A stretch of DNA of 64,000 nt from Escherichia coli (GCF_013122565.1 NZ_CP053258.1); one strand, 5' to 3'. Counted from the stretch's first letter, positions 1 to 27,603 are shown. A program made the numbers and translations. The notes: generated from the sequence alone by a model not told the origin.

Positions 1-209
1 TCCTGCGGGTTAAAGTCGCCCTCTTTGCCCCCGTGTTGCAGAATGCGCCGCAGAGACTCATCGCGGCTGATCCCTTTTAGGGATTCGTTAAACTGCGCAT
101 CAATGCTGATGCCAATTTCAGCGGCAATCTGCTGCCACGCCTGGAAATGCAGATGCGCGGTATCGGTGATTACACCATCCAGATCGAAAATTACCCCTTG
201 CAGTTTCAT
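1..209 (-). CDS. ycjU: beta-phosphoglucomutase, N-terminal part (gene runs off window start)
   Basis: Reverse-complement translation from ATG at 209-207 gives [13 protein letters not shown] (HAD DxD motif); AGGAGG 5 nt upstream; ATGA overlap with ycjT stop. Confidence 0.85.
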
Positions 210-2473
210 TCATCCTCCTGATGCGTGGTAGCGGTCCCATTGAAGGGCAAAATAAAATCACCCAAACAGAAAACAGATTCTTCAGCCACGGATATAAGCT
301 GACCGTTCAAACGCAGTGAAACGGGCGCAGAAGTTCGAATCGCAATACGCTGCGCGTCGAGAGTGACCTGTAATTCGCAGCCCTGCCAGAACAGAGGGAA
401 AGACAACTGTTGCCACTGCTCAGGTAACGCCGGATTGAGATGCAATTCACCGTCATGCACGCTCACCCCGGCAAAACCCTGAATCGCCCCCAGCCAGATA
501 GCGCCAGTTGCGGCAGCGTGGATACCATCATCACAACTATGCGGATCAGCACCAAGATCGATTTCAGTCCCCTCGCGCCAGAACTGATAACTTTGGGTCA
601 GCAGGCCACAGCGTGCGGCAACAATGCCGTGGATTGCTTTACTTAATGACGAGTCGTGAATGGTGCGCGGTTCATAAAATTGCAGATTGGCAAGACACGA
701 TACCGCTGAGAACTGCTCCGGCAGCATGTAATTGAGCATCACCACATCAGCTTGTTTGAGGATCTGCATCTCGTTCACTTCTGCGCGTGAATAATCCAGC
801 AGAATGGTTTGCTTCCCCGCCGCCGCTTTGTATTTCGCCAGGTTAATCGCCGGCTTAGCCATAAACGAATCATCCTGCGGCAAAACGCCGTCGGGCTGAG
901 TCTCTGGCATCCACAACTCTTTGAGGAATATTTCGGCACGATGAATAAACGCATCGTCGCTACAGCCGAACTGGCGGGCAATATTCAGCGCCTGTTGGAC
1001 GTTGTAGCAGGCCATATAGCTGGTGTATGCGTTATTATTGACATGTTCGGTATATTCGTCTGGCCCAATAACATCATGAATTTCCAGACGATCGTTAACT
1101 CTCACCGCGCGGCTAATCCAGAATTTCGCAGTTTCCAGCAGTAGCGCCATGCCTTCGTGAGCGATGAAGCTTTCATCTCCCGTTGCCTGCCAGTATTGAA
1201 TGACAGCCCAGGCGATATCGGCGACCAGATGATGTTCAGCCTGCGCCGAGGCCACTTTTTGCCGCAGTCCGGTGCGGATGTTAATGGCGGCAAATTCCGG
1301 CGTCTCTTCTTCGCCGCTGCGCGCGCTCTCCCACGGAAACAGCGCGCCCTGCCAACCATTGCGTCGCGCTTTCTCCTGCGCGCCAGGCAAGTTGTGCCAG
1401 CGATAACGCAGTAAACTTCGGGCAACCGTCGGATCGCTAAACAGATGAAACGGTAGCAAAAATACTTCTGTATCCCAGAAAACGTGGCCTTTGTAGCCTT
1501 CGCCGGTTAAGCCTTTTGCCGCAATACTGCTGCGCTCGTCGTGAGCCGGCGTCATGATGCGCAGATGATAAAGCGCATAATCTAACGCTTGCTGATCGTG
1601 CGCATCGCCGCCATTTACTGTGATACGACGTTTCTGCCACCATTGACGCCAGTTTTCTGTTGATGCTGCAAGAAGTTGGTCGTAACTCTGCTGCGCGCAC
1701 ATTTCAAGCTGGCGAAGCGACGCGCTGCCCCACTCGTCTAAAACGGCTTGCCTGTCATCCCGCCAGTCGATCCACACCAGTTTTTGCAACGTCACTGTCT
1801 CGCCTGCATGAAGCTGCGCACTGGTATGTTGCAGCAAACGGCGCTCTTTGGCGGTATAGCATTGCTGCACATCACCACTCACCTGGCAGCAACAGCTGAT
1901 GGCCACATCACTGCGTCCATCCTGGGTGGTGTAGATCCCCTGCATCAGATGCTGACCAAACACCCGCACCTGGGTTTCGTCGAGATGTTGGCGACCGTGG
2001 TTGGTTTGCGTGGCGTCGATACCTGTTGAAATCAGCACTGACGCGTCAGCGTCCAGTGGCGTAATAGTGATTTCCAGCGCAATGAGCGGCAGTTGGTCTG
2101 CCGAAACAAAGCGACGGCTGGCGATGGTGTAACCTGCGCCGTTGCTGGTACGCCAGACAACGTTGCGGCGTAATTCGCCACTGGCAAAGTCAAGCTCACG
2201 CTGCCAGGCTTCGTGGGATAACGAGAAAACCTCACCATTTATGGCAATCTCCATCCCCAAGATATCAGGCAGGTTCACCAGTTCGTTGATTTCACCTTTT
2301 CCCGCCCGATGATACAGCCCCGCCAGATACATCCCTCGCGTCTGGCGCGTGTAATCTTCTTCATGGCTGGCGCGAAGCCCAAGATAGCCGTTCCCCTGCG
2401 CCATCAGCGATGCATACTTGTTCAGGGTATGCTGGCTGAAATGGGGTTCTGATAACGTTACTGGCCTGGTCAT
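206..2473 (-). CDS. ycjT: GH65 kojibiose phosphorylase
   Basis: 755-aa ORF in track, matches remembered YcjT length and sequence; last gene before ycjU. Confidence 0.9.
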
Positions 2474-3525
2474 AATTCCACACGCGTCCCTGTTTCTGCG
2501 GATTGATACAACGCCGCCACCAGTTGCTGGATGATGTACCCCTGCTCGGCGTCGGCTATCATCACGGGCTTGCCCTGTACGTGATTGATAAAGGCTTCCA
2601 TGCTGCGCAAATGGCGGTTGTCGTCTGCCATTTCCCGTTGCATCAGCGTCATTAATTCACCGTTGTTATCGGTGTAGATATGTGCTGGAAACAGCGTCGC
2701 ACCGGCTTTATCACCACAAAAGCTGACGTTCATAATCGACTGTTCGCGGATGTTGAGCGCAAATGACGTTTCCAGCCACAGAATGCCGCCGTTATGAAAT
2801 TCAATGGTGCCAAACAGCGAATCTTCGACGCTGTAAGTTGCCGGATCCCACTCGCCAAACTGACCGCAGCTCTTTTGCGGGCCGATCTTTTGAAAGCTAT
2901 GCGCATTCACGCTTTTCACCGCCGGAAAGCCCAGCACATACATCGCCGCATCCAGCATATGAATACCGATGTCGATCAGCGGGCCACCGCCCTGCAGTTC
3001 TTTATTGGTAAAGACACCCCAGCCGGGAACGCCGCAGCGACGCAGGGCGCGGGCGGTGGTAACGTAAATCTCTCCCAAAACGCCGTTGGTCACCTGTTCA
3101 CGCAGCTGTTGCGTATCGAGCGCAAAACGATGGTGAAAGTCGTAGGCCAGCACCTTGCCCTGTTTGCGCGCGGTATCGCACATTTCCCGCGCCTGTTCTG
3201 GCGTCATGGCGGGCGGTTTTTCGCACATCACATGGCAGCCCGCTTCCAGCGCCATCAGGGTATGTTCGTAATGAAAACGGTTAGGTGAGCAGACGCTAAC
3301 CACATCAGGTTTCACCGCCAGCAGCATGGCCTGCGGATCGTCCCACACGGATGCATTCCCGTATTTTTCTGCCAGCGCCTGCGCCTGGGAAAGGCGGCTG
3401 TCACAGACAGCCACCAGTTCCAGATCGTTGCGGGTGCAGTAGTACGAAGCATGAACCTTATCCGCCACCTGGCCTGCGCCTATTATCGCGACCCGCAGTG
3501 GAGAGCTTGTCATTGCACTTTTCAC
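2470..3525 (-). CDS. ycjS: Gfo/Idh/MocA-family NAD-dependent sugar oxidoreductase
   Basis: 351-aa ORF; N-terminal Rossmann motif VAIIGAGQVA; 4-nt overlap with ycjT. Confidence 0.9.
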   Translation of the reverse strand: MKSAMTSSPLRVAIIGAGQVADKVHASYYCTRNDLELVAVCDSRLSQAQALAEKYGNASVWDDPQAMLLAVKPDVVSVCSPNRFHYEHTLMALEAGCHVMCEKPPAMTPEQAREMCDTARKQGKVLAYDFHHRFALDTQQLREQVTNGVLGEIYVTTARALRRCGVPGWGVFTNKELQGGGPLIDIGIHMLDAAMYVLGFPAVKSVNAHSFQKIGPQKSCGQFGEWDPATYSVEDSLFGTIEFHNGGILWLETSFALNIREQSIMNVSFCGDKAGATLFPAHIYTDNNGELMTLMQREMADDNRHLRSMEAFINHVQGKPVMIADAEQGYIIQQLVAALYQSAETGTRVEL

Positions 3526-3534
3526 AAAGACCTC

Positions 3535-4323
3535 TTAGCAGGTACGCAACCAGGTCAACGAATCACGGTACGCCTGGGCAGGATCTTCTGCCCGGATACG
3601 CCCTTCATACACCACATAACCCTGATAGTTATCGGCGCGCAGCTGTTCAAACAGCGCGTGGAAATCGAGGGTGCCGCTGCCCGGCTGGTAACGATGGTTA
3701 TCGGCAATATGCACATGACCGAGCAAGTCGCGGTTGTCATGCAGCGCCTGCGCCAGGTTATCTTCTTCGATGTTCATGTGATAGAAATCGCCGATAATCT
3801 GCACATGTTTAAGATTGTTTTCGACGATGTAACGACGAGCATCGGCGAGGGTGTTGATCATATGATCCTGATAGCGGTTTAACGGTTCGAGATACACCAC
3901 GGTTCCGGTACGCGCGGCGACCTGTTCCAGTACGCGCAGGGAATCACTCACCATTTTGCGGTCGCCGTCCAGGCTACGCGGCGAGGTCATCGGCGGTAAG
4001 CGGAAGGTAAACATGCCCCACGCTGCCGGAACGACGATACCTTTACCCCCCACTTCTGCCAGCGCTTCGAGAATGCGTTCGATCTGCTTTAAGCCATTAA
4101 GACGACGCTCTTCGATAAAGTCACCAATCCAGCCGTCATAGCCGCCGCAGGCGGTGGTCACCGGTAAACCGGTTTCTTTGATCGCCGCTTTGACTTCTTC
4201 GATGTTGTTGACCAGCAGTTTGCCGTCAATCTCAAAACCATCGAAGCCCATCTCTTTGATATAACGAAATTTCTCCAGAATATTTTCCGGGAAGAACGCC
4301 TGATTCTGTGTGCCTATTTTCAT
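3535..4323 (-). CDS. ycjR: sugar phosphate isomerase/epimerase (xylose-isomerase-like TIM barrel)
   Basis: Track ORF 3535..4452 trimmed to internal Met (MKIGTQNQAFF) to match the 262-aa protein. Confidence 0.85.
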   Translation of the reverse strand: MKIGTQNQAFFPENILEKFRYIKEMGFDGFEIDGKLLVNNIEEVKAAIKETGLPVTTACGGYDGWIGDFIEERRLNGLKQIERILEALAEVGGKGIVVPAAWGMFTFRLPPMTSPRSLDGDRKMVSDSLRVLEQVAARTGTVVYLEPLNRYQDHMINTLADARRYIVENNLKHVQIIGDFYHMNIEEDNLAQALHDNRDLLGHVHIADNHRYQPGSGTLDFHALFEQLRADNYQGYVVYEGRIRAEDPAQAYRDSLTWLRTC

Positions 4324-4340
4324 TTTTTCATTCCTTTGAA

Positions 4341-5393
4341 TTAAAACGTGACGCCCATTTTGATGCTCTGTTCCGGATGCTGATCGACATACTGCATGTA
4401 GCTTTCCGGGCTGTTGGCAAAGGTCACTACCGGGTCGATTAAATCTTCGCAATTGAGATAACCGTTCATCAGCAGTTTCCAGCAGGTTTCTTCAATACGC
4501 TTACGGCTCCAGCGCGGATAATCCGGGTTCGGTTCACTGCACGCGCGAGAGAAGACAATTTTGGCGTTATTGAAATGCGCTTCGCGTCCGAGGTTAAAAC
4601 CTTCAGCAAACGGTTTAGCAAACGCGACATAGGAGATGGTGCCACCGTAAGCCAGGCCGCGCAGCGCCGACTGCAGCGCGTCGGCGTAACCGCTGGTTTC
4701 GATAATCACATCGGCACCCTGCTTGCCGGTCAGCGTTTTGATCTCTTTGCCTACGTCAGTGCCAATGGGATTAAGGCAGAAATCCGCACCGTGACGACGA
4801 GCAATATCACAACGATGGGCAATAGGATCGACGCCAATTACCACCGACGCGCCAGCGCGTTTAGCCAATTGGATGGCAATTTGACCGATCGCGCCAAGCC
4901 CTACCACCACTACAAAATCCCCTACGCGTACGTTGGCATCGCGAACGCCACTCATGGCGAACTGCGCCGGGTCGTAGCAGACGGCGTTTTTCCAGGAGCT
5001 GCCTTCCGGCATTTTGCGCAGCTTGTAGTTATTCACTGCGTTAATGATGACCGTCTCGGAGAGCGGGCCGTAGCCGCATACGCTGTCGCCCACCGCGTAG
5101 TCGGTAACGTCGCTGCCGCACTCGATAATGTCGCCAACCACCATGTTGCCAAGCTGGAATTTGCCAAACTCAATGCCGCGCGGCGCATCTGCCGGACGCG
5201 GGGTGAACATCTGCCACTCGCCGTTAAAGTCTTCATCGATAAACGGGCTGGCGGCGCGGAAGTCGACCACTTCCGTTCCGTGTTTCGGTGCGCCGAAACG
5301 CACGCGGATCTTCACTTCATTGGCTAAAATCGCCCGATCTTCATACTCAACCAGCGCAGCAACGCGCGGTGCTGTGGCTACTAACTTTTTCAT
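4341..5393 (-). CDS. ycjQ: zinc-type medium-chain alcohol/sugar dehydrogenase
   Basis: 350-aa ORF; GLGAIGQ nucleotide-binding motif. Confidence 0.9.
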   Translation of the reverse strand: MKKLVATAPRVAALVEYEDRAILANEVKIRVRFGAPKHGTEVVDFRAASPFIDEDFNGEWQMFTPRPADAPRGIEFGKFQLGNMVVGDIIECGSDVTDYAVGDSVCGYGPLSETVIINAVNNYKLRKMPEGSSWKNAVCYDPAQFAMSGVRDANVRVGDFVVVVGLGAIGQIAIQLAKRAGASVVIGVDPIAHRCDIARRHGADFCLNPIGTDVGKEIKTLTGKQGADVIIETSGYADALQSALRGLAYGGTISYVAFAKPFAEGFNLGREAHFNNAKIVFSRACSEPNPDYPRWSRKRIEETCWKLLMNGYLNCEDLIDPVVTFANSPESYMQYVDQHPEQSIKMGVTF

Positions 5394-5423
5394 GTAAAAC
5401 TCCTTGTTAAGAAACTGGCCGCT

Positions 5424-6266
5424 TTAGCCCTTCACGCCACCGGCGGTCAAACCACTCTTAATAAAACGTTCCGAAAGCGCATACATAATCACCACCGGCA
5501 ATGCGGTCACCAGCGAGGCCGCCATCATGCGTCCCCAGATGTAATCAGGCGTACTGAACAGCGCGTTCAGGCCCACTGGTAAGGTGAAATTGCTGGCGCT
5601 GGAGAGGAAAATCGACGCAAACAGATAGTCGTTCCACGCCACCATAAAGCAGTAGACGAACACCGATATCAGCCCGGACATCGCCAACGGCACGGTGATA
5701 CGGAAGATAATTTGCAGACGGTTGAGGCCATCCATCATCGCCGCTTCTTCGATCTCATCAGGGATGGTGTCGAAGTAACTTTTCAGCATAAACACGGCGG
5801 TGGGCAGAGTTTGCGTCACCATGGTAATGATCAGCGCCATCTCGGTGTCGTAAATGCCAAGCGCGGTGATGATTTTGAACAGCGGCACCACCAGCAAAAT
5901 GCCAGAGAACATATACACCGTGTAAAAGCTGGCGTTGATGGTCATCCGGCCTTTAAAGCGCAGGCGAGAAAGCGCGTAAGCTCCGAGAATGCCGAGAAAT
6001 ACCGCCACCACGGATGAAACCACCGACACCACCATGCTGTTACGGAAGTAGTCGACAAACGGGAAAATCACCGGGTTAAAAATGTCGACATAATGCTCCA
6101 GCGTCCACTGTTGCGGCAGCAGCGTAGGATGCAGCGAGATCGCCTCTTTTGCGCTCTTGAACGAGGTCATCAGCATCACAAAAAACGGAAACAGCGTGAT
6201 GATGAGAAACAGCGCCAGCCCGCAGTAAAATCCGATACGACTGAGTGTGCGTTTATTTGTTGCCAT
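5424..6266 (-). CDS. ycjP: ABC transporter permease (sugar)
   Basis: 280-aa hydrophobic ORF, MalG-like. Confidence 0.9.
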   Translation of the reverse strand: MATNKRTLSRIGFYCGLALFLIITLFPFFVMLMTSFKSAKEAISLHPTLLPQQWTLEHYVDIFNPVIFPFVDYFRNSMVVSVVSSVVAVFLGILGAYALSRLRFKGRMTINASFYTVYMFSGILLVVPLFKIITALGIYDTEMALIITMVTQTLPTAVFMLKSYFDTIPDEIEEAAMMDGLNRLQIIFRITVPLAMSGLISVFVYCFMVAWNDYLFASIFLSSASNFTLPVGLNALFSTPDYIWGRMMAASLVTALPVVIMYALSERFIKSGLTAGGVKG

Positions 6267-7134
6267 TGAGGTTCACCCGTTTCCTGGTCAGAAGAATGAC
6301 AGCGAAAATAATGATGAAGAGCACCACCGAGATCGCCGCCGCTTTCCCTAAGTCATTAAAGGCAAAGGCAGTTTTGTAGAGATAGACACCGAGAATATCG
6401 ACCTTGGTCGTCAGCAGATAAACGTCAGCGAACATGTAGAACATCCAGATGGTGCGCAGGGTCACCACCGTCGCCAGGACCGGCATAATTGCGGGCAGCG
6501 TGACGATGCGAAACCGCTGCCAGGCATTAGCGCCATCCATCTCTGCCGCTTCGTACAGCGATTTGTCGATGGTCTGCAAAATCGCCAGAAACGAGATAAA
6601 GGCATACGGGAAGTAGCGCCAGATGGCGAACAGCACCACCAGCACAAAGCTACTGCCCGGATTATCGAACCACAGCGGTGCCTGCTCGTAGAGATGCAGA
6701 AGATCGACGCCGAGGTAGTTCACAATGCCGTAGCCGTTGTTGAACATGTATTTCCAGGCGAACACCAGCGAAATGGACGGCGTTACGTAGGAGAGGATCA
6801 CCAGCGAACGCGCGGTTTTGCGCAGGCGGAACTCGCGGTTGAAAAACATCGCCACCGCCAGCCCGAGCACGGTGCTGCCCGCCACCACCAGCGCGGTATA
6901 CCAGACCGTCATCCACAGCGAATGCCAGAAGCCGGGATCGGAGAGGATACGCACATAGTTGCTCACCCCAACAAACGTTGACTCGATGTTGGGATTGAGC
7001 GGCAGACGTAAAAAACTGATTTCGATATTCGACACCATCGGCCACGCCACCAGACCGCCCAGCAGTAATAAGCTGGGCGCGAGAAGCAGCAGCGCAAAGA
7101 GCATATCGGAACGACCTGAAAAAAGCCTGTTCAT
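6253..7134 (-). CDS. ycjO: ABC transporter permease (sugar)
   Basis: 293-aa hydrophobic ORF, MalF-like; overlaps ycjP start. Confidence 0.9.
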   Translation of the reverse strand: MNRLFSGRSDMLFALLLLAPSLLLLGGLVAWPMVSNIEISFLRLPLNPNIESTFVGVSNYVRILSDPGFWHSLWMTVWYTALVVAGSTVLGLAVAMFFNREFRLRKTARSLVILSYVTPSISLVFAWKYMFNNGYGIVNYLGVDLLHLYEQAPLWFDNPGSSFVLVVLFAIWRYFPYAFISFLAILQTIDKSLYEAAEMDGANAWQRFRIVTLPAIMPVLATVVTLRTIWMFYMFADVYLLTTKVDILGVYLYKTAFAFNDLGKAAAISVVLFIIIFAVILLTRKRVNLNGNK

Positions 7135-7154
7135 TGCGGATTCCTGTCCTGGGT

Positions 7155-8447
7155 TTAGTGCTGTTCGATCAGTTCATCCAGTTTTTTCTGGCTCGCTTGC
7201 AGCGTAGTAGAGAGATCGGCTTTACCCACGGTGACGTTATGCACCATTGAACTCACCACGCCAGAACCCGTCACATCACCCATGCGGGTAAAGTTTTTAT
7301 CCCCTACTGCGCCAAAGACCTGAATATTTGGCAGTTCACCGATTAGCTGATTCGGTAGTTCACCCAGCGCCTTAATAACGTCGTTGTCTTTCCAGGTGGC
7401 GGTAGTGACAACCGCTTTGTTCACCGGCAGTGCCGCGCCTGGCGACATCATCACCCAGTCGGCAATGTTGTCCGCCTGCTCCATAAAGGTGACGAATTTT
7501 TCTGCTGCTTCCGTTTCTTCGGTCTTTTGTCCGGCGGTAATGGTCAGCGAGGTCAACATGCCGTAGACGGCAGAGTTTTTCTCGGTTGGCACCACGAAAC
7601 CGACGTTTTTCGGGTCGCCTTCTTTAATCACAGCCGGAAGGATATAGGTGGAGTAAATCGCCATCGGCGCGGTGCCGTTCATAAAGGCGTCTTTCACTTC
7701 CATGATGTCGTTAGAACCCGGCATGGTGTTGGCAGCAAGGTCGCGGTAATAGGTCAGCGCCTGCATCATCTCTGGTGTATCAAGGGTGATTTTGCCTTCG
7801 GCGTTAAAGACGTTGGCCTGGTTGGATAACGCAAACTGGGAGAAGGATTGTTCCGTCAGCACGCTTTCTGCCGTAGGCAGCGCAATACCGTATTTTTTAT
7901 TCGCCGGGTCATTCAGTTTCTGTGCAACGTCCAGCAGCTGCTGCCAGTTTTTCGGCTCCTCCAGCCCGACTTTTGCCAGCACATCTTTGCGATACCAGAT
8001 GCCGCCAATCCAGGCGCTGACGGGAACACCGGTCCAGGCACTCCCATCTTCGGTGCGCACAATACGCAGTACGCCATCGTAAAACGCGCCTTCACCAACG
8101 TTGCTGATGACCGTGGCAACCGCCTTGCGATCGATAAGCTGCTCTTTGTCCATAACTTTGGCGTAGTCATGGCTGGTTTCGATCACTTCCGGCAGCGAAC
8201 CGCTACGTGAAAGGGTAATGACTTTAGTGTTATAGGCATCTTCTTCCACGGGCACTTGCTTAACGGTGATGCCCGGGTTTTCTTTTTCAAAACGGGCAAT
8301 CAATTTACTGATAACTGCCTGACGCTCCTGCTCCACCGAAGAATGCATAAATTCGATGGATACATTCGTTTTATTTTCTTCTTTACAGCCAGAAATCAGG
8401 GCGCAGGAAACCAGTGCTGATAACAGCACGATTTTTGATTTAATCAT
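7155..8447 (-). CDS. ycjN: periplasmic sugar-binding lipoprotein of ABC transporter
   Basis: 430-aa ORF; signal peptide with lipobox LISGC. Confidence 0.9.
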   Translation of the reverse strand: MIKSKIVLLSALVSCALISGCKEENKTNVSIEFMHSSVEQERQAVISKLIARFEKENPGITVKQVPVEEDAYNTKVITLSRSGSLPEVIETSHDYAKVMDKEQLIDRKAVATVISNVGEGAFYDGVLRIVRTEDGSAWTGVPVSAWIGGIWYRKDVLAKVGLEEPKNWQQLLDVAQKLNDPANKKYGIALPTAESVLTEQSFSQFALSNQANVFNAEGKITLDTPEMMQALTYYRDLAANTMPGSNDIMEVKDAFMNGTAPMAIYSTYILPAVIKEGDPKNVGFVVPTEKNSAVYGMLTSLTITAGQKTEETEAAEKFVTFMEQADNIADWVMMSPGAALPVNKAVVTTATWKDNDVIKALGELPNQLIGELPNIQVFGAVGDKNFTRMGDVTGSGVVSSMVHNVTVGKADLSTTLQASQKKLDELIEQH

Positions 8448-8460
8448 GAGATGTTCCTTT

Positions 8461-10140
8461 TTATTTAATCCACATAACCTGCCAGGGGCGCAGCGTTATT
8501 TCATTACCCAATATATCAACTTCACTAATCAGATCGCGACCATGCAGATTAGTAATATTTACATGCTGAATATTTTTACTGACATTAAACAATCCAGTCA
8601 GACAATTACCCTCTGCGTTACTTCTTTGAATACGCATTACGGATGAATTAACCGTATCGATGGTAAAATTATTATCCGGATGAAACTCGTTATGGCTGCG
8701 ACGAAGTGTAATTAAACGCGACAACTCATGATATACCGCATGCCTTAATGTAGCTTCATCGTTCAGTTCTCGGGTTATCTCTTCACTGTGATATTTTTTA
8801 CGGTTAATCGCACGGTTATATCCGAGTTTTTCGACACCTGCGTAATCATTACGCGAGCCCAGAATACTTTGAATATATATCGCTGGCACACCGGGGAAAC
8901 TTAACAAAATCGCATGGGCAAGGATAAACCTGGCGCAACGTTCTTCATCGCTACTCTCGCGGCGGCTTAACGCATCCATATAGGTGACATTTATTTCATA
9001 GGGACTGCGCGTACCGTCGGGATTATTTTTCCAGTTTACTAATGCACCTTCCTGCTGTAATGCCTCGACCAGCGCTAATATTTCGCTTTCTGGTAACAAG
9101 CCCCGCAGTGGGTTCAGCCCGATGCCATCGTGAGAGGCGAGGAAGTTAAACCAGGTCGTTTTACCGGAGGGCAAGCTCAGACTTTGCGCCCACTGGCACA
9201 GCGCCTCGACGTTCTGTTTTTGCACCGCATGTAACACCAGCGGCGGCAGCGAGAACTGGTACACCATATGCGCTTCGTCATCGCCTTCGCCAAAGTAAGC
9301 AATGTTATCTTTATGCGGAACATTCGTCTCAGTAATAATCACCGTACCTGGCGCGATGTCATCAATAATCGACCGTAACAGTTTGATAATCAGATGTGTT
9401 TTTTCCAGATGGATGCAGCTTGTTCCCGGCTCTTTCCACATAAAGCCAACGGCATCCAGACGGACATATTCTGCGCCCTTTTCCAGGTAACAAAGCAAAA
9501 CATCCACCATCGCCAGCAACACGTCAGGGCTACGGTAATTCAGGTCAATTTGATCGTCGCTAAAGGTGGTCCATAAATGGCGCGTGGAATTATCATCCAT
9601 TTGAAACGGCGTTAATAGCGGTAATGCACGCGGACGGGTGACAGCGCTGAGATCGGTTTGCGGATCAACCGCAATAAAAAAATCTTCAAAACCTGGCTGC
9701 TGTTGTAAATAGTTTTTAAACCATTCACTTTTTGCCGACATATGGTTGCAGACAAAATCAAACATTAAATGACTGCATTCACCGAGCTGCTGAATATCCT
9801 GCCACTCCCCCGCTTCACTGGCGACCTGATGATAATCAATTACCGAAAATCCATCATCAGATGACCATGGATAAAAAGGTAATAAATGAACATGTGAAAA
9901 AATGCTTTGCAGCCATTGATGGTAAAACTGATTAAATGTGGGTAGTGGTTTTAAATCATTACTGTGAAATTGATCGGCATAGGTAATTAACACGACATCA
10001 CTTTCATCCCAGTGTTTTTTACGTCGCTGTGTAATTAATCGTTTCGCACTCTCAAGACGCGTTACAAGTTTCTGTAAATGAGTTGCGGTAAATGTTCCAC
10101 CGTAGATTTCGTCCAGGTAATCCGTAATTTTCTGTTTCAT
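8461..10140 (-). CDS. ycjM: GH13 sucrose-phosphorylase-like enzyme (glucosylglycerate phosphorylase)
   Basis: Track ORF 8461..10167 trimmed to MKQKITDYL (559 aa); GGAAAGG SD upstream; first gene of ycj operon; visibly more AT-rich than downstream genes. Confidence 0.85.
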   Translation of the reverse strand: MKQKITDYLDEIYGGTFTATHLQKLVTRLESAKRLITQRRKKHWDESDVVLITYADQFHSNDLKPLPTFNQFYHQWLQSIFSHVHLLPFYPWSSDDGFSVIDYHQVASEAGEWQDIQQLGECSHLMFDFVCNHMSAKSEWFKNYLQQQPGFEDFFIAVDPQTDLSAVTRPRALPLLTPFQMDDNSTRHLWTTFSDDQIDLNYRSPDVLLAMVDVLLCYLEKGAEYVRLDAVGFMWKEPGTSCIHLEKTHLIIKLLRSIIDDIAPGTVIITETNVPHKDNIAYFGEGDDEAHMVYQFSLPPLVLHAVQKQNVEALCQWAQSLSLPSGKTTWFNFLASHDGIGLNPLRGLLPESEILALVEALQQEGALVNWKNNPDGTRSPYEINVTYMDALSRRESSDEERCARFILAHAILLSFPGVPAIYIQSILGSRNDYAGVEKLGYNRAINRKKYHSEEITRELNDEATLRHAVYHELSRLITLRRSHNEFHPDNNFTIDTVNSSVMRIQRSNAEGNCLTGLFNVSKNIQHVNITNLHGRDLISEVDILGNEITLRPWQVMWIK

Positions 10141-10311
10141 GTTGCCTTTCCGTGGTAGCGGTCCCATGAAATGAGAGACTACTCCGCAGAAAATAAACTG
10201 TCAATTGAGCACAAGGGTTTTAGTCACGCAGGAAATCATTTTTTACCAGGGAAAAAGCGTATTTGTGAGCTGACGCAAATAATCTATAGGGATGTAAATA
10301 AGGTGTGACAG

Positions 10312-10335
10312 AAAAAAACGGCGCATAAGCGCCGC
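10312..10335 (-). terminator. rho-independent terminator after pspE
   Basis: Minus strand reads GGCGC-TTAT-GCGCC followed by TTTTTTT. Confidence 0.8.
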
Positions 10336-10350
10336 TCATGGTGAATTCTT

Positions 10351-10665
10351 TTAACCTTTGACCTTCGGCATTGCGATGTCTTTCAGGCCACCGGCGTTCT
10401 CAACGTGGGTATATCCCATCTCGCTAAGGATCTCTTTTGCCTGCCCTGACTGGCGTCCGGCATTGCAATACACTTTCACGGTGTCGTTTTTATCGGGAAC
10501 GGCGGTGGCAATGCGCTCTTTCACTTCCTTCAGGGGAATATTGATGGCCCCCTGAACGTGCTCTTGCTTATACTGCTCTGGAACACGAACATCGATCCAG
10601 TGTTCAGCGGCAAAAACGGGCAGTGAAAACACCAGTGCCAGAGCAAGTAAGCCTTTTTTAAACAT
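10351..10665 (-). CDS. pspE: thiosulfate sulfurtransferase (rhodanese), periplasmic
   Basis: 104-aa ORF with signal peptide and rhodanese active-site Cys (CNAGRQS). Confidence 0.9.
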   Translation of the reverse strand: MFKKGLLALALVFSLPVFAAEHWIDVRVPEQYKQEHVQGAINIPLKEVKERIATAVPDKNDTVKVYCNAGRQSGQAKEILSEMGYTHVENAGGLKDIAMPKVKG

Positions 10666-10739
10666 GTAAGCGTCCTTCTATGGATGAAAATTGCTATCCA
10701 TTATACGCCTGAGATTTAACAATTTTTGCGAAACTCCCC

Positions 10740-10961
10740 TCACCTTTTATAACGCTGTGCCAGTTTATTAGCAGCCCGACTTAACAGCGGTTCCAGCGCC
10801 ACAGCCAGCAACATTTTCAGCGGTCGGCGAGCAACTGATTTTATCGCCCAGCCCGCCACACCCGCCGGGCCATAGCGCAGTGCGGTAAGAAGTACCAGCT
10901 TGCCTGCTAATTTGAAACCAGGCTTTACCTTTTGCCCGGCCTGTTGCCAGCGAGTATTCAT
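10740..10961 (-). CDS. pspD: phage shock protein D
   Basis: Track ORF trimmed to [10 protein letters not shown] (73 aa); operon position. Confidence 0.85.
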
Positions 10962-10969
10962 AACTTTCC

Positions 10970-11329
10970 TCACAGTTGACGGAAACGGCTACGTAACGTG
11001 AAAGTATCGGAAGTGACATAACGTTCCATCTCGCGTAAACGCGTTTCACTTGCCGCCAGTTCACGGTCGACTTCATCCAGCAATTCACTGCTGGAAGGTA
11101 GCTGCTCACCAAAGGCCATGTTGTCCGGCATTGGATCAAGCGCAAATGACAAAATGATGTAAGCAACCAGGGTAAACAGCGCCAGACCGAAGAAAATCGA
11201 CAGCACCACCAGGATACGCACCAGTTTTACCGGTACATCAAAATAGTTGGCAATCCCGGCGCAGACGCCACGGACCATGCCCTGCTGTGGAATACGCCAT
11301 AATTTTTTATTGAGATTAATGCCCGCCAT
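10970..11329 (-). CDS. pspC: phage shock protein C
   Basis: 119-aa ORF with single TM segment and PspC domain. Confidence 0.9.
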
Positions 11330-11553
11330 TAGCGATCCCTCCAGTTCGGATGTTCTGCATCAAGAATAGATTCCAGCGCCTGAATACGTTCGCGCATCCG
11401 TTTTGCTTCATCAGCCAGTTGCGCTAATCGCTGCTGCTCACTTTGCGACAATTCACTGCGACCAGAACGATTGCTGTAATGCAGCCATAACCAGATCGGT
11501 AAAACAAACAGCACAAAAATGGTTAACGGAATAGCCAGAAATAGCGCGCTCAT
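11329..11553 (-). CDS. pspB: phage shock protein B
   Basis: 74-aa ORF, N-terminal TM helix; overlaps pspC start. Confidence 0.9.
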   Translation of the reverse strand: MSALFLAIPLTIFVLFVLPIWLWLHYSNRSGRSELSQSEQQRLAQLADEAKRMRERIQALESILDAEHPNWRDR

Positions 11554-11606
11554 AAGTACTCCTTAGACGATGAGCGGCGGCGCGTTCGGACGCCGCCTGG
11601 ATGTTA

Positions 11607-12347
<741 letters not shown>

Positions 12348-12441
12348 TTATCTTTTTGATTTATAAAGATCTGATTGAAGAATCAACAGCAACATGCCAG
12401 GATGAGTTAGCGAATTACACTAACAAGTGGCGAATTTCATC

Positions 12442-13419
12442 ATGGCAGAATACAAAGATAATTTACTTGGTGAGGCGAACAGCTTTCTCGAAGTGCTGGA
12501 ACAGGTTTCGCATCTCGCACCGCTGGACAAACCGGTGCTCATCATCGGCGAACGCGGCACCGGTAAAGAGCTGATTGCCAGCCGCCTGCATTATCTCTCC
12601 TCCCGTTGGCAAGGGCCGTTTATTTCCCTTAACTGCGCGGCGTTAAATGAAAATCTGCTGGATTCCGAACTGTTTGGTCACGAAGCGGGGGCGTTTACCG
12701 GTGCGCAAAAACGTCATCCTGGGAGATTTGAACGTGCCGACGGCGGTACGCTATTTCTTGATGAACTCGCTACGGCACCGATGATGGTGCAGGAGAAATT
12801 ATTGCGCGTGATTGAGTACGGTGAACTGGAGCGCGTTGGCGGCAGCCAGCCATTGCAGGTGAATGTGCGGTTGGTATGCGCGACGAATGCCGATCTCCCG
12901 GCGATGGTCAATGAAGGTACTTTTCGCGCTGACCTGCTCGACCGGCTGGCTTTCGATGTAGTGCAACTGCCGCCCCTGCGCGAGCGCGAAAGCGACATTA
13001 TGCTGATGGCAGAACACTTTGCCATTCAGATGTGTCGGGAAATCAAGCTGCCTCTGTTCCCGGGGTTTACGGAGCGCGCCAGAGAAACATTGCTGAATTA
13101 TCGCTGGCCGGGAAATATTCGTGAATTGAAAAACGTGGTGGAACGTTCGGTGTATCGCCACGGCACCAGCGATTATCCGCTTGATGACATCATTATTGAT
13201 CCCTTTAAACGGCGTCCACCTGAAGAAGCCATCGCCGTTTCAGAAAACACCTCGCTTCCGACGCTGCCGCTGGATTTACGCGAGTTTCAGATGCAGCAGG
13301 AAAAAGAGTTGCTGCAACTCAGTTTGCAACAAGGGAAATATAACCAGAAGCGCGCAGCTGAATTGCTGGGGTTAACCTACCATCAGTTCCGCGCGTTGCT
13401 GAAAAAACACCAGATTTAG
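12442..13419 (+). CDS. pspF: sigma-54-dependent transcriptional activator (AAA+ bEBP)
   Basis: Track ORF trimmed to MAEYKDNLLGE (325 aa); Walker A GERGTGKE; GAFTGA motif; C-terminal HTH. Confidence 0.95.
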   Translation: MAEYKDNLLGEANSFLEVLEQVSHLAPLDKPVLIIGERGTGKELIASRLHYLSSRWQGPFISLNCAALNENLLDSELFGHEAGAFTGAQKRHPGRFERADGGTLFLDELATAPMMVQEKLLRVIEYGELERVGGSQPLQVNVRLVCATNADLPAMVNEGTFRADLLDRLAFDVVQLPPLRERESDIMLMAEHFAIQMCREIKLPLFPGFTERARETLLNYRWPGNIRELKNVVERSVYRHGTSDYPLDDIIIDPFKRRPPEEAIAVSENTSLPTLPLDLREFQMQQEKELLQLSLQQGKYNQKRAAELLGLTYHQFRALLKKHQI

Positions 13420-26611: not shown

Positions 26612-27603
26612 TGCCATTACTCGATATTCGTAACCTGACCATTGAATTTAAAACCGGGGATGAGTGGGTTAAGGCAGTTGACCGCGTAAGCATGACCTTA
26701 ACCGAAGGTGAAATCCGCGGTCTTGTTGGCGAATCCGGCTCCGGCAAAAGTTTGATTGCGAAAGCGATTTGTGGGGTGAATAAAGATAACTGGCGTGTTA
26801 CTGCTGACCGTATGCGTTTTGATGATATCGATTTGCTGCGTCTCTCCGCACGCGAACGACGCAAGCTGGTTGGTCACAACGTGTCGATGATTTTCCAGGA
26901 ACCGCAGTCGTGTCTTGATCCTTCAGAACGAGTGGGTCGCCAGTTGATGCAAAACATCCCAGCCTGGACCTATAAAGGCCGTTGGTGGCAGCGTTTTGGC
27001 TGGCGCAAACGCCGTGCCATTGAACTGCTGCACCGCGTGGGGATTAAAGATCACAAAGATGCGATGCGCAGTTTTCCCTATGAGTTGACCGAAGGTGAAT
27101 GTCAGAAAGTGATGATAGCCATTGCACTGGCGAATCAACCGCGTCTGCTGATTGCTGACGAACCGACCAACTCAATGGAGCCAACAACCCAGGCGCAAAT
27201 CTTTCGCCTGCTGACGCGTCTCAACCAAAACAGCAATACCACTATTTTGCTTATCAGCCATGACTTACAAATGCTTAGCCAATGGGCGGATAAAATTAAC
27301 GTGCTTTACTGCGGTCAAACGGTGGAAACCGCGCCGAGTAAGGAGTTGGTGACGATGCCACATCATCCTTATACCCAGGCGCTGATCCGCGCGATACCAG
27401 ACTTCGGCAGCGCGATGCCGCATAAAAGTCGCCTCAATACGTTGCCCGGCGCTATCCCACTGCTGGAACAGTTACCGATTGGTTGTCGTCTGGGGCCACG
27501 TTGCCCGTATGCACAACGAGAATGCATTGTGACGCCACGTTTGACGGGGGCGAAAAATCATCTCTATGCCTGTCATTTCCCGCTGAACATGGAGAAAGAG
27601 TGA
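26611..27603 (+). CDS. sapD: Sap ABC transporter ATPase
   Basis: 330-aa ORF; Walker A GESGSGKS. Confidence 0.95.

What the first reader, a model, noticed from the sequence alone, without database searches (positions are those of the whole stretch)
1..10140. ycjMNOPQRSTU carbohydrate cluster with still-unknown physiological substrate
Nine co-directional genes encode a GH13 phosphorylase, a three-component ABC importer, two dehydrogenases, a sugar isomerase/epimerase, a GH65 kojibiose phosphorylase and a beta-phosphoglucomutase. Individual enzymes have reported activities, but the natural sugar taken up and the inducing signal are, to my knowledge, unresolved. It is the least understood multi-gene unit in the window, though it is a known locus and not new.
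Basis: partly seen in the sequence, partly recalled or inferred. Interest (0 to 1): 0.4.

Follow-up and report, generated by a model that had tools for sequence, protein, structure and literature searches.

The report
E. coli ycj sugar-utilisation operon
This stretch is the well-known, intact E. coli ycj carbohydrate operon, whose enzymes and repressor have been characterised but whose natural food molecule is still unidentified, so it is an ordinary known locus with one open question.

Summary
Window 1-10140 is the E. coli ycjM-ycjU segment on the minus strand. Eight genes are complete (ycjM, N, O, P, Q, R, S, T). Of ycjU only the first 69 codons are present, because the window edge cuts it. 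ycjV (ATPase), ompG and ycjW (repressor) lie outside the window. All eight complete genes are intact, 96.8-99.7% identical in protein to K-12, with dN/dS of 0.013-0.089. Two identical YcjW operators (TGGTAGCGGTCCCA) sit at 10153-10166 and 226-239, where published ChIP-seq peaks lie.

The regulator is established, and kojibiose releases it in vitro at 0.5-1 mM. The natural substrate remains unknown: a 2024 YcjN crystal-structure study found no ligand, and a 2025 maltose claim is weak.

- The whole gene set and its operator travel together from Enterobacterales to Listeria, Bacillus and Paenibacillus.
- A glycerate kinase is embedded in or beside the cluster in 15 of 80 species.
- A YcjQ-YcjR-importer trio is the persistent core in distant variants.
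- K-12's ycjV carries a 1-bp frameshift that about 89% of E. coli genomes lack, which confounds K-12 growth tests.
- ycjW mutants are repeatedly selected in mouse guts.

Verdict: already known, low interest.

The parts
1..209 (-). ycjU/pgmB (beta-phosphoglucomutase), 5' fragment only: codons 1-69 of 219, cut by the window edge
   Evidence: Annotated homologue in PapRG-04-4. TIGR01990 positions 1-61 matched at 98 bits. HAD motif I DLDGV is present.
206..2473 (-). ycjT, GH65 kojibiose phosphorylase (755 aa)
   Evidence: Three GH65 Pfam domains. 97.9% aa identity to K-12 YcjT. Best solved relative is kojibiose phosphorylase 3WIQ. The KP motif E64/E382/A384/P392 is present.
226..239 (.). YcjW operator O2 (TGGTAGCGGTCCCA), inside the last 30 nt of ycjT and 17 nt upstream of the ycjU start
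   Evidence: Exact copy of the operator upstream of ycjM. It coincides with the second published ChIP-seq peak. It is conserved at this position in Escherichia, Citrobacter, Salmonella, Enterobacter and Buttiauxella.
2470..3525 (-). ycjS, Gfo/Idh/MocA NAD-dependent D-glucoside 3-dehydrogenase (351 aa, GTG start)
   Evidence: Pfam PF01408 and PF02894. 99.1% identical to K-12. K-12 annotation reads 'D-glucoside 3-dehydrogenase'. About 40% identical to DgpA.
3535..4323 (-). ycjR, 3-keto-D-glucoside 4-epimerase (262 aa)
   Evidence: PDB 6WN6 '3-keto-D-glucoside 4-epimerase' matches at E=2e-178. 99.2% identical to K-12.
4341..5393 (-). ycjQ, Zn-dependent-ADH-family D-guloside 3-dehydrogenase (350 aa)
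   Evidence: PF00107. K-12 annotation. 99.4% identical to K-12, dN/dS 0.013. No solved relative below E=1e-20.
5424..6266 (-). ycjP, ABC importer permease (MalG-like)
   Evidence: PF00528. NF008231 MalG at 145 bits. 98.9% identical to K-12.
6253..7134 (-). ycjO, ABC importer permease (UgpA/MalF-like)
   Evidence: PF00528. 99.7% identical to K-12.
7155..8447 (-). ycjN, lipoprotein substrate-binding protein (430 aa; lipobox LISGC, Cys21)
   Evidence: PF01547. PDB 8VQK is YcjN. The lipobox is visible in the translation. Lipidation at Cys21 was shown in PMC11543891.
8461..10140 (-). ycjM, GH13_18 glucosylglycerate phosphorylase (559 aa)
   Evidence: PF00128. The TETN signature sits in 'IITETNVPH'. 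96.8% identical to K-12. GC is 45% against 52-56% for the rest of the cluster.
10153..10166 (.). YcjW operator O1 (TGGTAGCGGTCCCA), 13 nt upstream of the ycjM ATG
   Evidence: Pattern search. [quoted passage not shown] It is conserved upstream of the first gene of the cluster in nearly all 80 species examined, Firmicutes included.
10176..10204 (-). Candidate sigma-70 promoter of ycjM (-35 TTGACA 10204-10199, 17-nt spacer, -10 TAGTCT 10181-10176). Inferred only.
   Evidence: Own scan. It would place the transcription start at the edge of O1, consistent. The generic consensus scan found no more sites than chance.
10264..10279 (-). CRP-like sequence TTTGCGTCAGCTCACA (2 mismatches to TGTGA-N6-TCACA). 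Unverified.
   Evidence: Own scan. A consensus match only.
10316..10337 (-). Intrinsic terminator of pspE, which separates the psp operon from the ycj operon
   Evidence: Stem of 9 pairs (6 G-C) followed by a T-run.

Best explanation
This is the ordinary, functional E. coli ycj regulon: one YcjW-repressed operon for uptake and phosphorolytic breakdown of alpha-(1->2)-linked glucosides.

Proposed flow:
1. The substrate crosses the outer membrane through OmpG (outside the window).
2. The lipid-anchored binding protein YcjN captures it, and YcjO/YcjP import it, powered by YcjV (outside the window).
3. YcjM splits 2-O-alpha-glucosylglycerate with phosphate into alpha-glucose-1-phosphate and D-glycerate.
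4. YcjT splits kojibiose-type alpha-1,2 bonds into beta-glucose-1-phosphate and glucose.
5. YcjU converts beta-glucose-1-phosphate to glucose-6-phosphate.
6. YcjQ (oxidation at C3), YcjR (epimerisation at C4) and YcjS (reduction at C3) interconvert gulo-configured or 3-keto glycosides and glucosides through 3-keto intermediates, so such analogues can enter the phosphorylase steps.
7. YcjW binds the two identical operators, one at the ycjM leader and one just before ycjU, and is released by a kojibiose-like effector.

Shown by published work: the individual enzyme activities, YcjW repression, and the operator positions.

Shown here:
- This copy is intact and under purifying selection.
- The operators are present.
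- The nine genes plus regulator and operator are inherited as one unit across phyla.
- A glycerate kinase repeatedly joins the cluster.

Inferred: the genes serve one pathway, glycerate is a real in-vivo product, and YcjQ/YcjR act first on the imported compound. The identity of that compound is not known.
For: - Orthology and integrity. dN/dS 0.013-0.089.
- Family signatures. TETN in YcjM and in 73 of 73 orthologues. EEAP motif in YcjT. YcjR is identical in family to PDB 6WN6.
- Regulation: two operators matching the published ChIP-seq/EMSA sites and the kojibiose effect.
- Co-inheritance: in 80 species the order M-N-O-P-Q-R-S-T-U is kept wherever the contig allows, with only three rearranged Firmicute exceptions. 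These span Enterobacterales to Listeria, Bacillus, Neobacillus and Paenibacillus. A relative with only 52% YcjR identity still keeps the full set.
- The operator TGGGA[CG]CG[CG]TACCA is conserved upstream of the first gene, including in Firmicutes.
- Glycerate kinase (PF02595/TIGR00045) lies between the ycjT and ycjU homologues in 11 loci and close to the cluster in 4 more. It is the only recurrent accessory gene.
- In vivo relevance: ycjW mutations rise repeatedly, together with lacI and malI mutations, in E. coli colonising germ-free mice.
Against: - Purified YcjN showed no thermal shift with kojibiose, glucose or maltose.
- K-12 does not grow on kojibiose, and the YcjW authors doubt it is the natural inducer.
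- The effector concentration of 0.5-1 mM is high for a cognate inducer.
- D-gulosides are not known as abundant natural compounds (own knowledge), so the role of YcjQRS is unexplained.
- E. coli YcjT, unlike other kojibiose phosphorylases, does not act on longer alpha-1,2-oligoglucans.
- In YcjT the residues aligned with CsKP Trp416 and Thr417 (Thr417 is a +1-subsite residue) are Ala408 and Ser409 in all 74 orthologues. Free kojibiose may therefore not be the true substrate.
- About 9% of E. coli genomes lack most of the cluster.
- The primary Raushel papers on YcjT and YcjQRS could not be read here. Those activities are cited through annotations and secondary papers.
Confidence: 0.6

Rival explanations
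1. One composite substrate. The imported molecule is a glycerate-anchored di- or oligosaccharide, for example alpha-Glc- or alpha-Gul-(1->2)-alpha-Glc-(1->2)-D-glycerate, degraded in sequence. YcjQRS convert an outer gulo or 3-keto residue to glucose. YcjT removes it as beta-glucose-1-phosphate, leaving glucosylglycerate. YcjM then releases alpha-glucose-1-phosphate and glycerate.
For: - GH65, GH13_18, beta-PGM, Q, R and S are strictly co-inherited across phyla.
- Glycerate kinase sits between the ycjT and ycjU homologues.
- YcjT can glucosylate the 2-OH of an alpha-glucoside, sucrose (title of Isono et al. 2023, seen).
- All 74 YcjT orthologues have Ala408/Ser409 where CsKP has Trp416/Thr417 (Thr417 is a +1-subsite residue), which could leave room for an aglycone.
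- Glucosylglycerate was not in the YcjN ligand screen.
Against: - No such alpha-1,2 compound was found in the literature searched. The known natural relatives are alpha-1,6-glucosyl-glucosylglycerate and alpha-1,2-mannosyl-glucosylglycerate (own knowledge).
- YcjT is reported inactive on kojitriose-type oligomers.
- The idea is inference from synteny only.
Confidence: 0.2
2. Maltose or general glucoside importer. YcjNOPV is mainly a second maltose uptake system that can also carry aryl glucosides.
For: A 2025 study reports slower growth of a K-12 ycjN deletion on maltose, plus HPLC evidence for maltose and calycosin-7-glucoside uptake. The permeases resemble MalF/MalG.
Against: - Purified YcjN gave no thermal shift with maltose, while MBP shifted by 8.6 C in the same assay.
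- The growth effect is modest and the authors concede it is not definitive.
- The strain was K-12, whose ycjV is frameshifted.
- The cluster encodes no maltose- or maltodextrin-specific enzyme. Its phosphorylases carry alpha-1,2-specific signatures.
Confidence: 0.07
3. Salvage of 3-keto-glycosides or plant aryl/C-glycosides. YcjS, Q and R are the heart of the system and act on 3-oxidised glycosides made by neighbouring bacteria, or on flavonoid glucosides. The phosphorylases are downstream clean-up.
For: - The closest solved relatives of YcjS are the DgpA glycoside 3-oxidoreductases of gut bacteria, at about 40% identity and E=7e-63. YcjS also has weaker NCBIfam hits to levoglucosan dehydrogenase and to Bacteroides disaccharide/glycoside 3-dehydrogenases.
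- YcjQ, YcjR and the permeases are the most conserved members.
- A YcjQ-YcjR-importer trio persists alone in distant variants.
Against: - YcjR's PDB matches at E<=1e-10 list no DgpB/DgpC-type lyase partner.
- YcjR is a structurally characterised epimerase, not a lyase.
- The variant contexts rest on three metagenomic contigs.
Confidence: 0.12
4. The locus is a decaying or cryptic remnant with no current physiological substrate in E. coli.
For: - K-12 carries a frameshifted ycjV.
- About 9% of complete genomes lack most of the cluster, in one case through an IS1-associated deletion.
- No growth substrate has been found.
Against: - All eight genes are intact in the window, with dN/dS 0.013-0.089.
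- The intact ycjV allele matches exactly in 4431 of 4994 genomes, against 370 for the K-12 allele.
- The cluster and its operator are conserved across about 80 species.
- ycjW is a target of selection in the mouse gut.
Confidence: 0.03

Closest known systems
E. coli K-12 ycjMNOPQRSTUV-ompG operon with its repressor YcjW (b1309-b1320)
   Same: Same genes in the same order, 96.8-99.7% protein identity, the same two YcjW operators, and the same position next to pspE.
   Different: The window ends inside ycjU. The sequence is not K-12: 96.9% nucleotide identity to K-12, with the best match at 99.0% to baboon isolate PapRG-04-4. K-12 has a 1-bp deletion in ycjV that the nearest relative and most E. 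coli lack. The window's own ycjV cannot be seen.
Glucosylglycerate phosphorylase loci of Meiothermus silvanus and Spirochaeta thermophila (GH13_18 GGaP, Franceus et al. 2017)
   Same: YcjM carries the GGaP-defining TETN motif. GGaP genes are often accompanied by a glycerate kinase, which I also find inside Listeria, Bacillus and Limnobaculum ycj clusters.
   Different: Those loci are linked to glucosylglycerate synthesis genes (gpgS/gpgP). The ycj cluster has an importer, a GH65 enzyme and an oxidation-epimerisation-reduction trio instead.
Kojibiose catabolic pair, kojibiose phosphorylase plus beta-phosphoglucomutase (Thermoanaerobacter brockii, Pyrococcus sp. ST04, Caldicellulosiruptor CsKP 3WIQ)
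   Same: A GH65 enzyme with the EEAP specificity motif, followed by a beta-PGM gene.
   Different: YcjT is reported inactive on longer alpha-1,2-oligoglucans. It has Ala/Ser where CsKP has Trp416/Thr417, invariant in 74 orthologues.
DgpA-DgpBC C-/O-glycoside 3-oxidation and cleavage systems of gut bacteria, and related 3-keto-glycoside pathways (levoglucosan LgdA; Bacteroides BT2158/BT2159)
   Same: A Gfo/Idh/MocA enzyme oxidises the sugar at C3 and is paired with a xylose-isomerase-like TIM-barrel protein. YcjS is about 40% identical to DgpA.
   Different: The TIM-barrel partner YcjR is a C4 epimerase (PDB 6WN6), not a lyase. A second, Zn-ADH-type dehydrogenase (YcjQ) closes a redox-neutral epimerisation instead of a cleavage.
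E. coli maltose system (LamB, MalE-FGK2, MalP, MalT/MalI)
   Same: Same logic: a dedicated porin, a class D-I binding protein, a CUT1-type ABC importer, a cytoplasmic phosphorylase and a LacI-type regulator.
   Different: YcjN is a lipoprotein and does not bind maltose in nanoDSF. The enzymes target alpha-1,2 rather than alpha-1,4 bonds.

Membership tests
E. coli ycj regulon (ycjMNOPQRSTUV-ompG / YcjW) | Orthologues of b1309-b1317 in the K-12 order next to pspE | tested here: met
   same order, 96.8-99.7% aa identity. ycjU is present only as its first 69 codons.
E. coli ycj regulon (ycjMNOPQRSTUV-ompG / YcjW) | YcjW operators upstream of ycjM and at the ycjT/ycjU junction | tested here: met
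   One search finds two identical 14-mers at 10153-10166 and 226-239. The positions match the ChIP-seq peaks described.
E. coli ycj regulon (ycjMNOPQRSTUV-ompG / YcjW) | Presence of ycjV, ompG and ycjW | not testable with these tools
   They lie beyond window coordinate 1. They are present and intact in the nearest relative.
GH13_18 glucosylglycerate phosphorylase | GH13 catalytic domain | tested here: met
   PF00128, E=9e-22. TIGR03852 sucrose-phosphorylase model scores 224 bits, below its 334-bit cutoff, as expected for a non-sucrose member.
GH13_18 glucosylglycerate phosphorylase | [quoted passage not shown] | tested here: met
   The motif is defined in PMC7178133. The window's YcjM has IITETNVPH. 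TETN is present in 73 of 73 orthologues.
GH13_18 glucosylglycerate phosphorylase | Conserved Glu in loop A; phosphorolysis of glucosylglycerate | not tested
   No numbering was available to place loop A. Activity is taken from the literature on the K-12 enzyme.
GH65 kojibiose phosphorylase | N-terminal, catalytic and C-terminal GH65 domains | tested here: met
   PF03636, PF03632 and PF03633.
GH65 kojibiose phosphorylase | Specificity motif EEAPxx at CsKP positions 64/392/394/402/416/585 | tested here: met
   The motif is defined. The window's YcjT has E64, E382, A384 and P392 by alignment to 3WIQ.
GH65 kojibiose phosphorylase | W-E-T motif binding the +1 glucose (CsKP W391, E392, T417) | tested here: inconclusive
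   W381 and E382 are kept. The Thr417 equivalent is Ser409 and the neighbouring Trp416 equivalent is Ala408, invariant in 74 orthologues.
3-keto-D-glucoside 4-epimerase (YcjR, PDB 6WN6) | Near-identity to the solved and characterised enzyme | tested here: met
   E=2e-178 over residues 1-262. 99% identity.
DgpA/DgpBC glycoside 3-oxidation and C-C/C-O cleavage system | DgpA-like oxidoreductase together with DgpB/DgpC-type lyase subunits | tested here: not met
   YcjS is about 40% identical to DgpA. The only TIM-barrel protein in the cluster is YcjR, whose PDB matches at E<=1e-10 are itself and ketose 3-epimerases, with no DgpB/C.
CUT1-type binding-protein-dependent ABC sugar importer | Family-1 binding protein plus two BPD_transp_1 permeases plus a MalK/MsmX-type ATPase | tested here: inconclusive
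   The binding protein and both permeases are present. The ATPase gene lies outside the window.
Bacterial lipoprotein | Signal peptide ending in a lipobox with the acylated Cys | tested here: met
   YcjN begins MIKSKIVLLSALVSCALISGC, with Cys21. Lipidation at Cys21 was shown experimentally for the K-12 protein.
beta-phosphoglucomutase (HAD superfamily) | HAD motif I DxDG and a full-length match to TIGR01990 | tested here: inconclusive
   Motif DLDGV is present. The 69-residue fragment scores 98 bits on model positions 1-61, and the 189-bit cutoff cannot be reached by a fragment.

The most novel reading that the evidence does not exclude
All nine genes serve one still-undescribed natural compound: a glycerate-anchored glycoside whose sugar is gulo-configured, 3-oxidised, or extended by an alpha-1,2-glucose. 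Examples are gulosyl- or kojibiosyl-glycerate, made by plants or soil/gut microbes.

In this reading YcjQ/YcjR act first on the imported molecule, and YcjS, YcjT, YcjM, YcjU and a glycerate kinase finish the job. Kojibiose and glucosylglycerate would be only fragments of the true substrate. That would explain why YcjN binds none of the sugars tested and why YcjW needs millimolar kojibiose.
Probability: 0.2. Interest if true: 0.55.

Novelty: already known. Interest (0 to 1): 0.25.

Why it matters
The locus itself is textbook E. coli and nothing in this copy is unusual.

What remains of value is an open question in a model organism. A nine-to-twelve-gene, strongly conserved sugar pathway has characterised enzymes, a solved binding protein and a known repressor, yet no known natural substrate.

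Four observations assembled here make that question more testable:
- The set is inherited as one unit across phyla, operator included.
- Glycerate kinase recurs inside the cluster.
- K-12's ATPase gene is frameshifted, whereas most wild E. coli have it intact.
- ycjW is repeatedly hit during gut colonisation.

Together they argue for including glucosylglycerate-type ligands, using strains with intact ycjV, and looking in gut or chow extracts.

Tried and rejected
- **Primary papers.** I tried to read those on YcjT (PMC5953851), YcjQRS (PMC6613369), YcjR (PMC7509853) and YcjM (PMC5601347). None is held. Those activities are cited through reviews, annotations and PDB names.
- **Rfam.** A scan of 1-12500 found no RNA family.
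- **Promoter/terminator scan.** The generic scan found no more sites than shuffled sequence, apart from the pspE terminator. The ycjM promoter and CRP-like site are therefore offered only as candidates.
- **Listeria locus tags.** A literature search on lmo2833-2840 gave nothing on substrate.
- **PDB relatives of YcjN.** 7V09 (E. cloacae) is uncharacterised. For 8ULA I found no paper in the library. Neither yielded ligand information.
- **Accessory genes.** Clustering all flanking ORFs in the 80 loci found nothing recurrent except glycerate kinase. Other insertions were lineage-specific, for example a T6SS Hcp in Buttiauxella and a GDSL esterase in Paenibacillus.
- **Composition.** I checked whether the locus is a foreign island. 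Only ycjM is off (45% GC), and the cluster sits at the same psp/ycjX position in more than 40 Enterobacteriaceae species.
- **Rejected readings.** I rejected 'pseudogenised remnant' and 'maltose transporter'.

Full report
**What is there**

ORF listing and comparison with 5,426 complete E. coli genomes show that window 1-10140 is the ycj locus on the minus strand. Mapping onto the best match, baboon isolate PapRG-04-4 (99.0-99.1% identical), and onto K-12 MG1655 gives these coordinates:

| Gene | Window coordinates |
|---|---|
| ycjM | 8461-10140 |
| ycjN | 7155-8447 |
| ycjO | 6253-7134 |
| ycjP | 5424-6266 |
| ycjQ | 4341-5393 |
| ycjR | 3535-4323 |
| ycjS | 2470-3525 |
| ycjT | 206-2473 |
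| ycjU/pgmB | 1-209 (first 69 of 219 codons) |

The ATPase gene ycjV, the porin gene ompG and the repressor gene ycjW lie beyond coordinate 1.

Its 'three-component importer' is the binding protein and two permeases, without the ATPase. The end coordinate 10140 is exactly the ycjM start codon. Gene spacing is that of an operon: two 4-bp overlaps, one 14-bp overlap, and gaps of 9-30 bp.

**Is it real and intact**

- None of the eight complete genes has an internal stop. Their proteins are 96.8-99.7% identical to K-12.
- Nei-Gojobori dN/dS against K-12 is 0.013-0.089, lowest for ycjQ, ycjN, ycjR and ycjO. This copy is functional and under purifying selection.
- No Rfam family matches in 1-12500.
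- The rest of the window is core E. coli: psp, puu, sap, fabI, rnb, pdeR, osmB, pyrF, lapAB, acnA, cysB, topA, trpLED.

**Regulatory anatomy**

A LacI-type palindrome, TGGTAGCGGTCCCA, occurs exactly twice in the locus. One copy is at 10153-10166, 13 nt upstream of the ycjM ATG. The other is at 226-239, inside the last 30 nt of ycjT and 17 nt before the ycjU ATG.

Luhachack et al. placed the two strongest YcjW ChIP-seq peaks at these two positions. They showed YcjW to be a repressor of ycjMNOPQRSTUV-ompG (PMC6599011).

A strong intrinsic terminator after pspE (10337-10316) separates the psp operon from the ycj operon. A candidate promoter (TTGACA, 17 nt, TAGTCT; 10204-10176) would start transcription at the edge of the operator. 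A CRP-like sequence lies at 10279-10264. Both are consensus matches only.

**What is already known**

| Component | Established function | Source |
|---|---|---|
| YcjM | Strict 2-O-alpha-glucosylglycerate phosphorylase of GH13_18, recognisable by a (T/S)ETN motif | PMC7178133, |
| YcjT | GH65 kojibiose phosphorylase; the only characterised one inactive on longer alpha-1,2-oligoglucans | PMC11442529, |
| YcjU | beta-phosphoglucomutase | |
| YcjQ, YcjR, YcjS | D-guloside 3-dehydrogenase, 3-keto-D-glucoside/guloside 4-epimerase (PDB 6WN6), D-glucoside 3-dehydrogenase | |
| YcjN | Lipoprotein binding protein with a 1.95 A structure (8VQK) | PMC11543891, |

The window's YcjM has the TETN motif, in IITETNVPH.

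In the YcjN study, a nanoDSF screen that included kojibiose, maltose and glucose found no ligand. The authors state that the ligand remains unknown.

Kojibiose at 0.5-1 mM releases YcjW from DNA. K-12 does not grow on kojibiose, and the authors suggest the true inducer is something else.

A 2025 paper claims maltose transport, based on modest growth differences of a K-12 ycjN mutant (PMC13053599). This conflicts with the direct binding assay.

The regulator and an in-vitro effector are known. The physiological substrate is not.

**What I could add: comparative genomics**

*Co-inheritance.* YcjR is unusually conserved, at 70-74% identity to Listeria, Bacillus and Paenibacillus. A scan of one genome per species returned 80 loci. 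Wherever the contig allows, the order M-N-O-P-Q-R-S-T-U is kept apart from three rearranged Firmicute loci. Enterobacterales add V, OmpG and a divergent W. Firmicutes place W upstream and lack V and OmpG, as expected for organisms that have no outer membrane and commonly share one ATPase among importers (MsmX-type, as in B. subtilis). In the two Paenibacillus species the order is rearranged and a different importer replaces N/O/P.

*Identity gradient.* Between E. coli and Firmicutes the permeases, YcjQ and YcjR are at 68-80%. YcjS, T, U, M and N are at 41-62%.

*Operator.* The sequence TGGGA[CG]CG[CG]TACCA is found upstream of the first gene in nearly all loci, including Firmicutes, where there are 1-4 copies. 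The second, internal copy is restricted to Escherichia, Citrobacter, Salmonella, Enterobacter and Buttiauxella.

The JBC 2024 paper had already noted a similar neighbourhood in Proteobacteria and Firmicutes. The operator conservation and the next two points are, as far as I could find, additional.

*Glycerate kinase.* Clustering every non-ycj ORF in the 80 loci gave one recurrent accessory gene. It is a glycerate kinase (PF02595, TIGR00045). It lies between the ycjT and ycjU homologues in 11 loci: several Listeria species, Bacillus sp. OV322 and the enterobacterium Limnobaculum. It lies close to the cluster (9 nt to 4.6 kb away) in four more loci, and next to the GH13 gene in Paenibacillus. 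This argues that glycerate really is released by the pathway in vivo. It supports a glucosylglycerate-type moiety in the natural substrate.

*Distant variants.* An exhaustive HMMER search shows the YcjR family dropping sharply from the 70%+ orthologue group to 38-52%.
- The 52% relative still has the entire set.
- A 42% relative has a YcjQ-like ADH, an AraC regulator, the epimerase, a different ABC importer and a TETN-bearing GH13_18 enzyme. It has no S, T or U on its 10.5-kb contig.
- A 40% relative has only ADH, AraC, epimerase and importer.

YcjQ stays at 52-62% in all three. The persistent core is therefore YcjQ, YcjR and an importer, followed by the GGaP-type phosphorylase. GH65, beta-PGM and the Gfo enzyme appear only in the full version. 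This rests on three metagenomic contigs and is suggestive only.

**Enzyme signatures**

Aligned to CsKP (3WIQ), YcjT has the kojibiose-phosphorylase motif: E64, E382, A384, P392, corresponding to EEAP. It also keeps W381 and E382. The equivalents of CsKP Trp416 and Thr417 are Ala408 and Ser409, invariant in 74 orthologues. Thr417 is a published +1-subsite residue.

YcjT can also use sucrose as acceptor (title of Isono et al. 2023, seen). Together these are compatible with a natural substrate that carries an aglycone on the +1 glucose. This is inference.

The closest solved relatives of YcjS are the DgpA glycoside 3-oxidoreductases of gut bacteria, at about 40% identity. YcjR's PDB matches include no DgpB/C-type lyase.

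**Why the substrate may have been missed**

In K-12 MG1655 ycjV is annotated as a pseudogene. The lesion is a 1-bp deletion in a G6 run at nucleotide 955. It removes the last ~40 residues.

The exact K-12 allele occurs in 370 genomes, mostly laboratory K-12 derivatives. The intact allele occurs exactly in 4431 of 4994 genomes that have the region.

The YcjW growth tests used MG1655, and the 2025 YcjN study used a strain listed only as E. coli K-12. Glucosylglycerate was not in the YcjN ligand screen.

Even so, MG1655 colonising germ-free mice repeatedly acquires ycjW mutations, alongside lacI and malI mutations (bioRxiv 10.1101/2020.12.04.412072). A second study saw the same (PMC12238654). Derepression of the operon, or of neighbouring pspE, is therefore advantageous in the gut. 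A side activity on raffinose-derived sucrose cannot be excluded.

**Population facts**

5032 of 5426 genomes match the region and 4944 cover at least 80% of it. About 9% lack most of it. In strain FORC_082 an IS1 sits where ycjM'-ompG has been deleted, leaving ycjW orphaned.

**Mechanism and verdict**

The best-supported reading is the standard one. This is a YcjW-repressed uptake and phosphorolysis pathway for alpha-1,2-glucosides (glucosylglycerate, kojibiose-type compounds), with a 3-keto-mediated epimerisation branch.

My additions are that the genes work as one pathway, that glycerate is a real product, and that YcjQ/YcjR probably act first. The identity of the imported compound is unknown.

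Rivals are listed with the result that would refute each: one composite glycerate-anchored substrate, maltose, 3-keto/aryl glycoside salvage, and a decaying remnant.

Nothing about this copy is unusual. The finding is a correct identification of a known locus with a known open question. Novelty: already known. Interest: 0.25.

Noticed in passing
outside the window (ycjV; L002:14822-15903 against L001:2454-3536): K-12 MG1655 ycjV is a pseudogene because of a 1-bp deletion in a G6 run. The K-12 allele is exact in 370 complete E. coli genomes and the intact allele in 4431. It also appears in a few non-K-12 strains, so it may arise repeatedly by slippage.
   Followed up: partly
L094 (NZ_AP018352.1, IncHI2 plasmid of Enterobacter hormaechei), locus 1-23651: A Citrobacter-like copy of the ycj cluster (ycjN-ompG annotated plus ycjW; 79% identical to the window), together with pspFABCD, pspE, ycjX and ycjF. 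It sits next to qnrB6 on 300-377 kb plasmids. 56 plasmid records (55 Enterobacter, 1 Citrobacter) carry it, and 56 of the 59 matching records are typed conjugative. It looks like a chromosomal passenger mobilised with the quinolone-resistance gene.
   Followed up: partly
window 8461-10140 (ycjM): ycjM has about 45% GC against 52-56% for ycjN-ycjT. It is the most diverged gene of the cluster within E. coli (95.1% nucleotide identity, dS 0.20). This hints at a separate history or recombination.
   Followed up: no
L087 (E. coli FORC_082), locus 4146-6111: An IS1A element replaces everything from inside ycjM to ompG, leaving ycjW orphaned. 394 of 5426 complete genomes have no match to the region at all. 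I did not determine which lineages these are.
   Followed up: partly
L003:18728-20795 (Listeria ilorinensis): About 4 kb downstream of the Listeria ycj-like cluster lies a second LacI regulator and a GH94 beta-1,2-oligoglucan (sophoro-oligosaccharide) phosphorylase gene. A 1,2-linked-glucan theme in the neighbourhood is possible but may be coincidence.
   Followed up: no
L074:9307-9984 and L082:9236-9952 (Paenibacillus): A GDSL-family esterase gene is inserted between the YcjQ and YcjR homologues in the two Paenibacillus clusters. This could point to an acylated substrate. The Pfam support is weak (27-29 bits).
   Followed up: partly
window 10351-12275 and 12427-13419: The psp operon (pspE, D, C, B, A) and pspF lie directly upstream. 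Published work reports that derepressing the YcjW regulon raises pspE expression and H2S production. No YcjW motif is found near pspE in the window apart from the ycjM operator.
   Followed up: partly
window 27347-27360: A one-mismatch match to the YcjW operator pattern (TGGTGACGATGCCA) lies far from the locus. Shuffles predict about two such matches in the window by chance, so it is probably meaningless.
   Followed up: no
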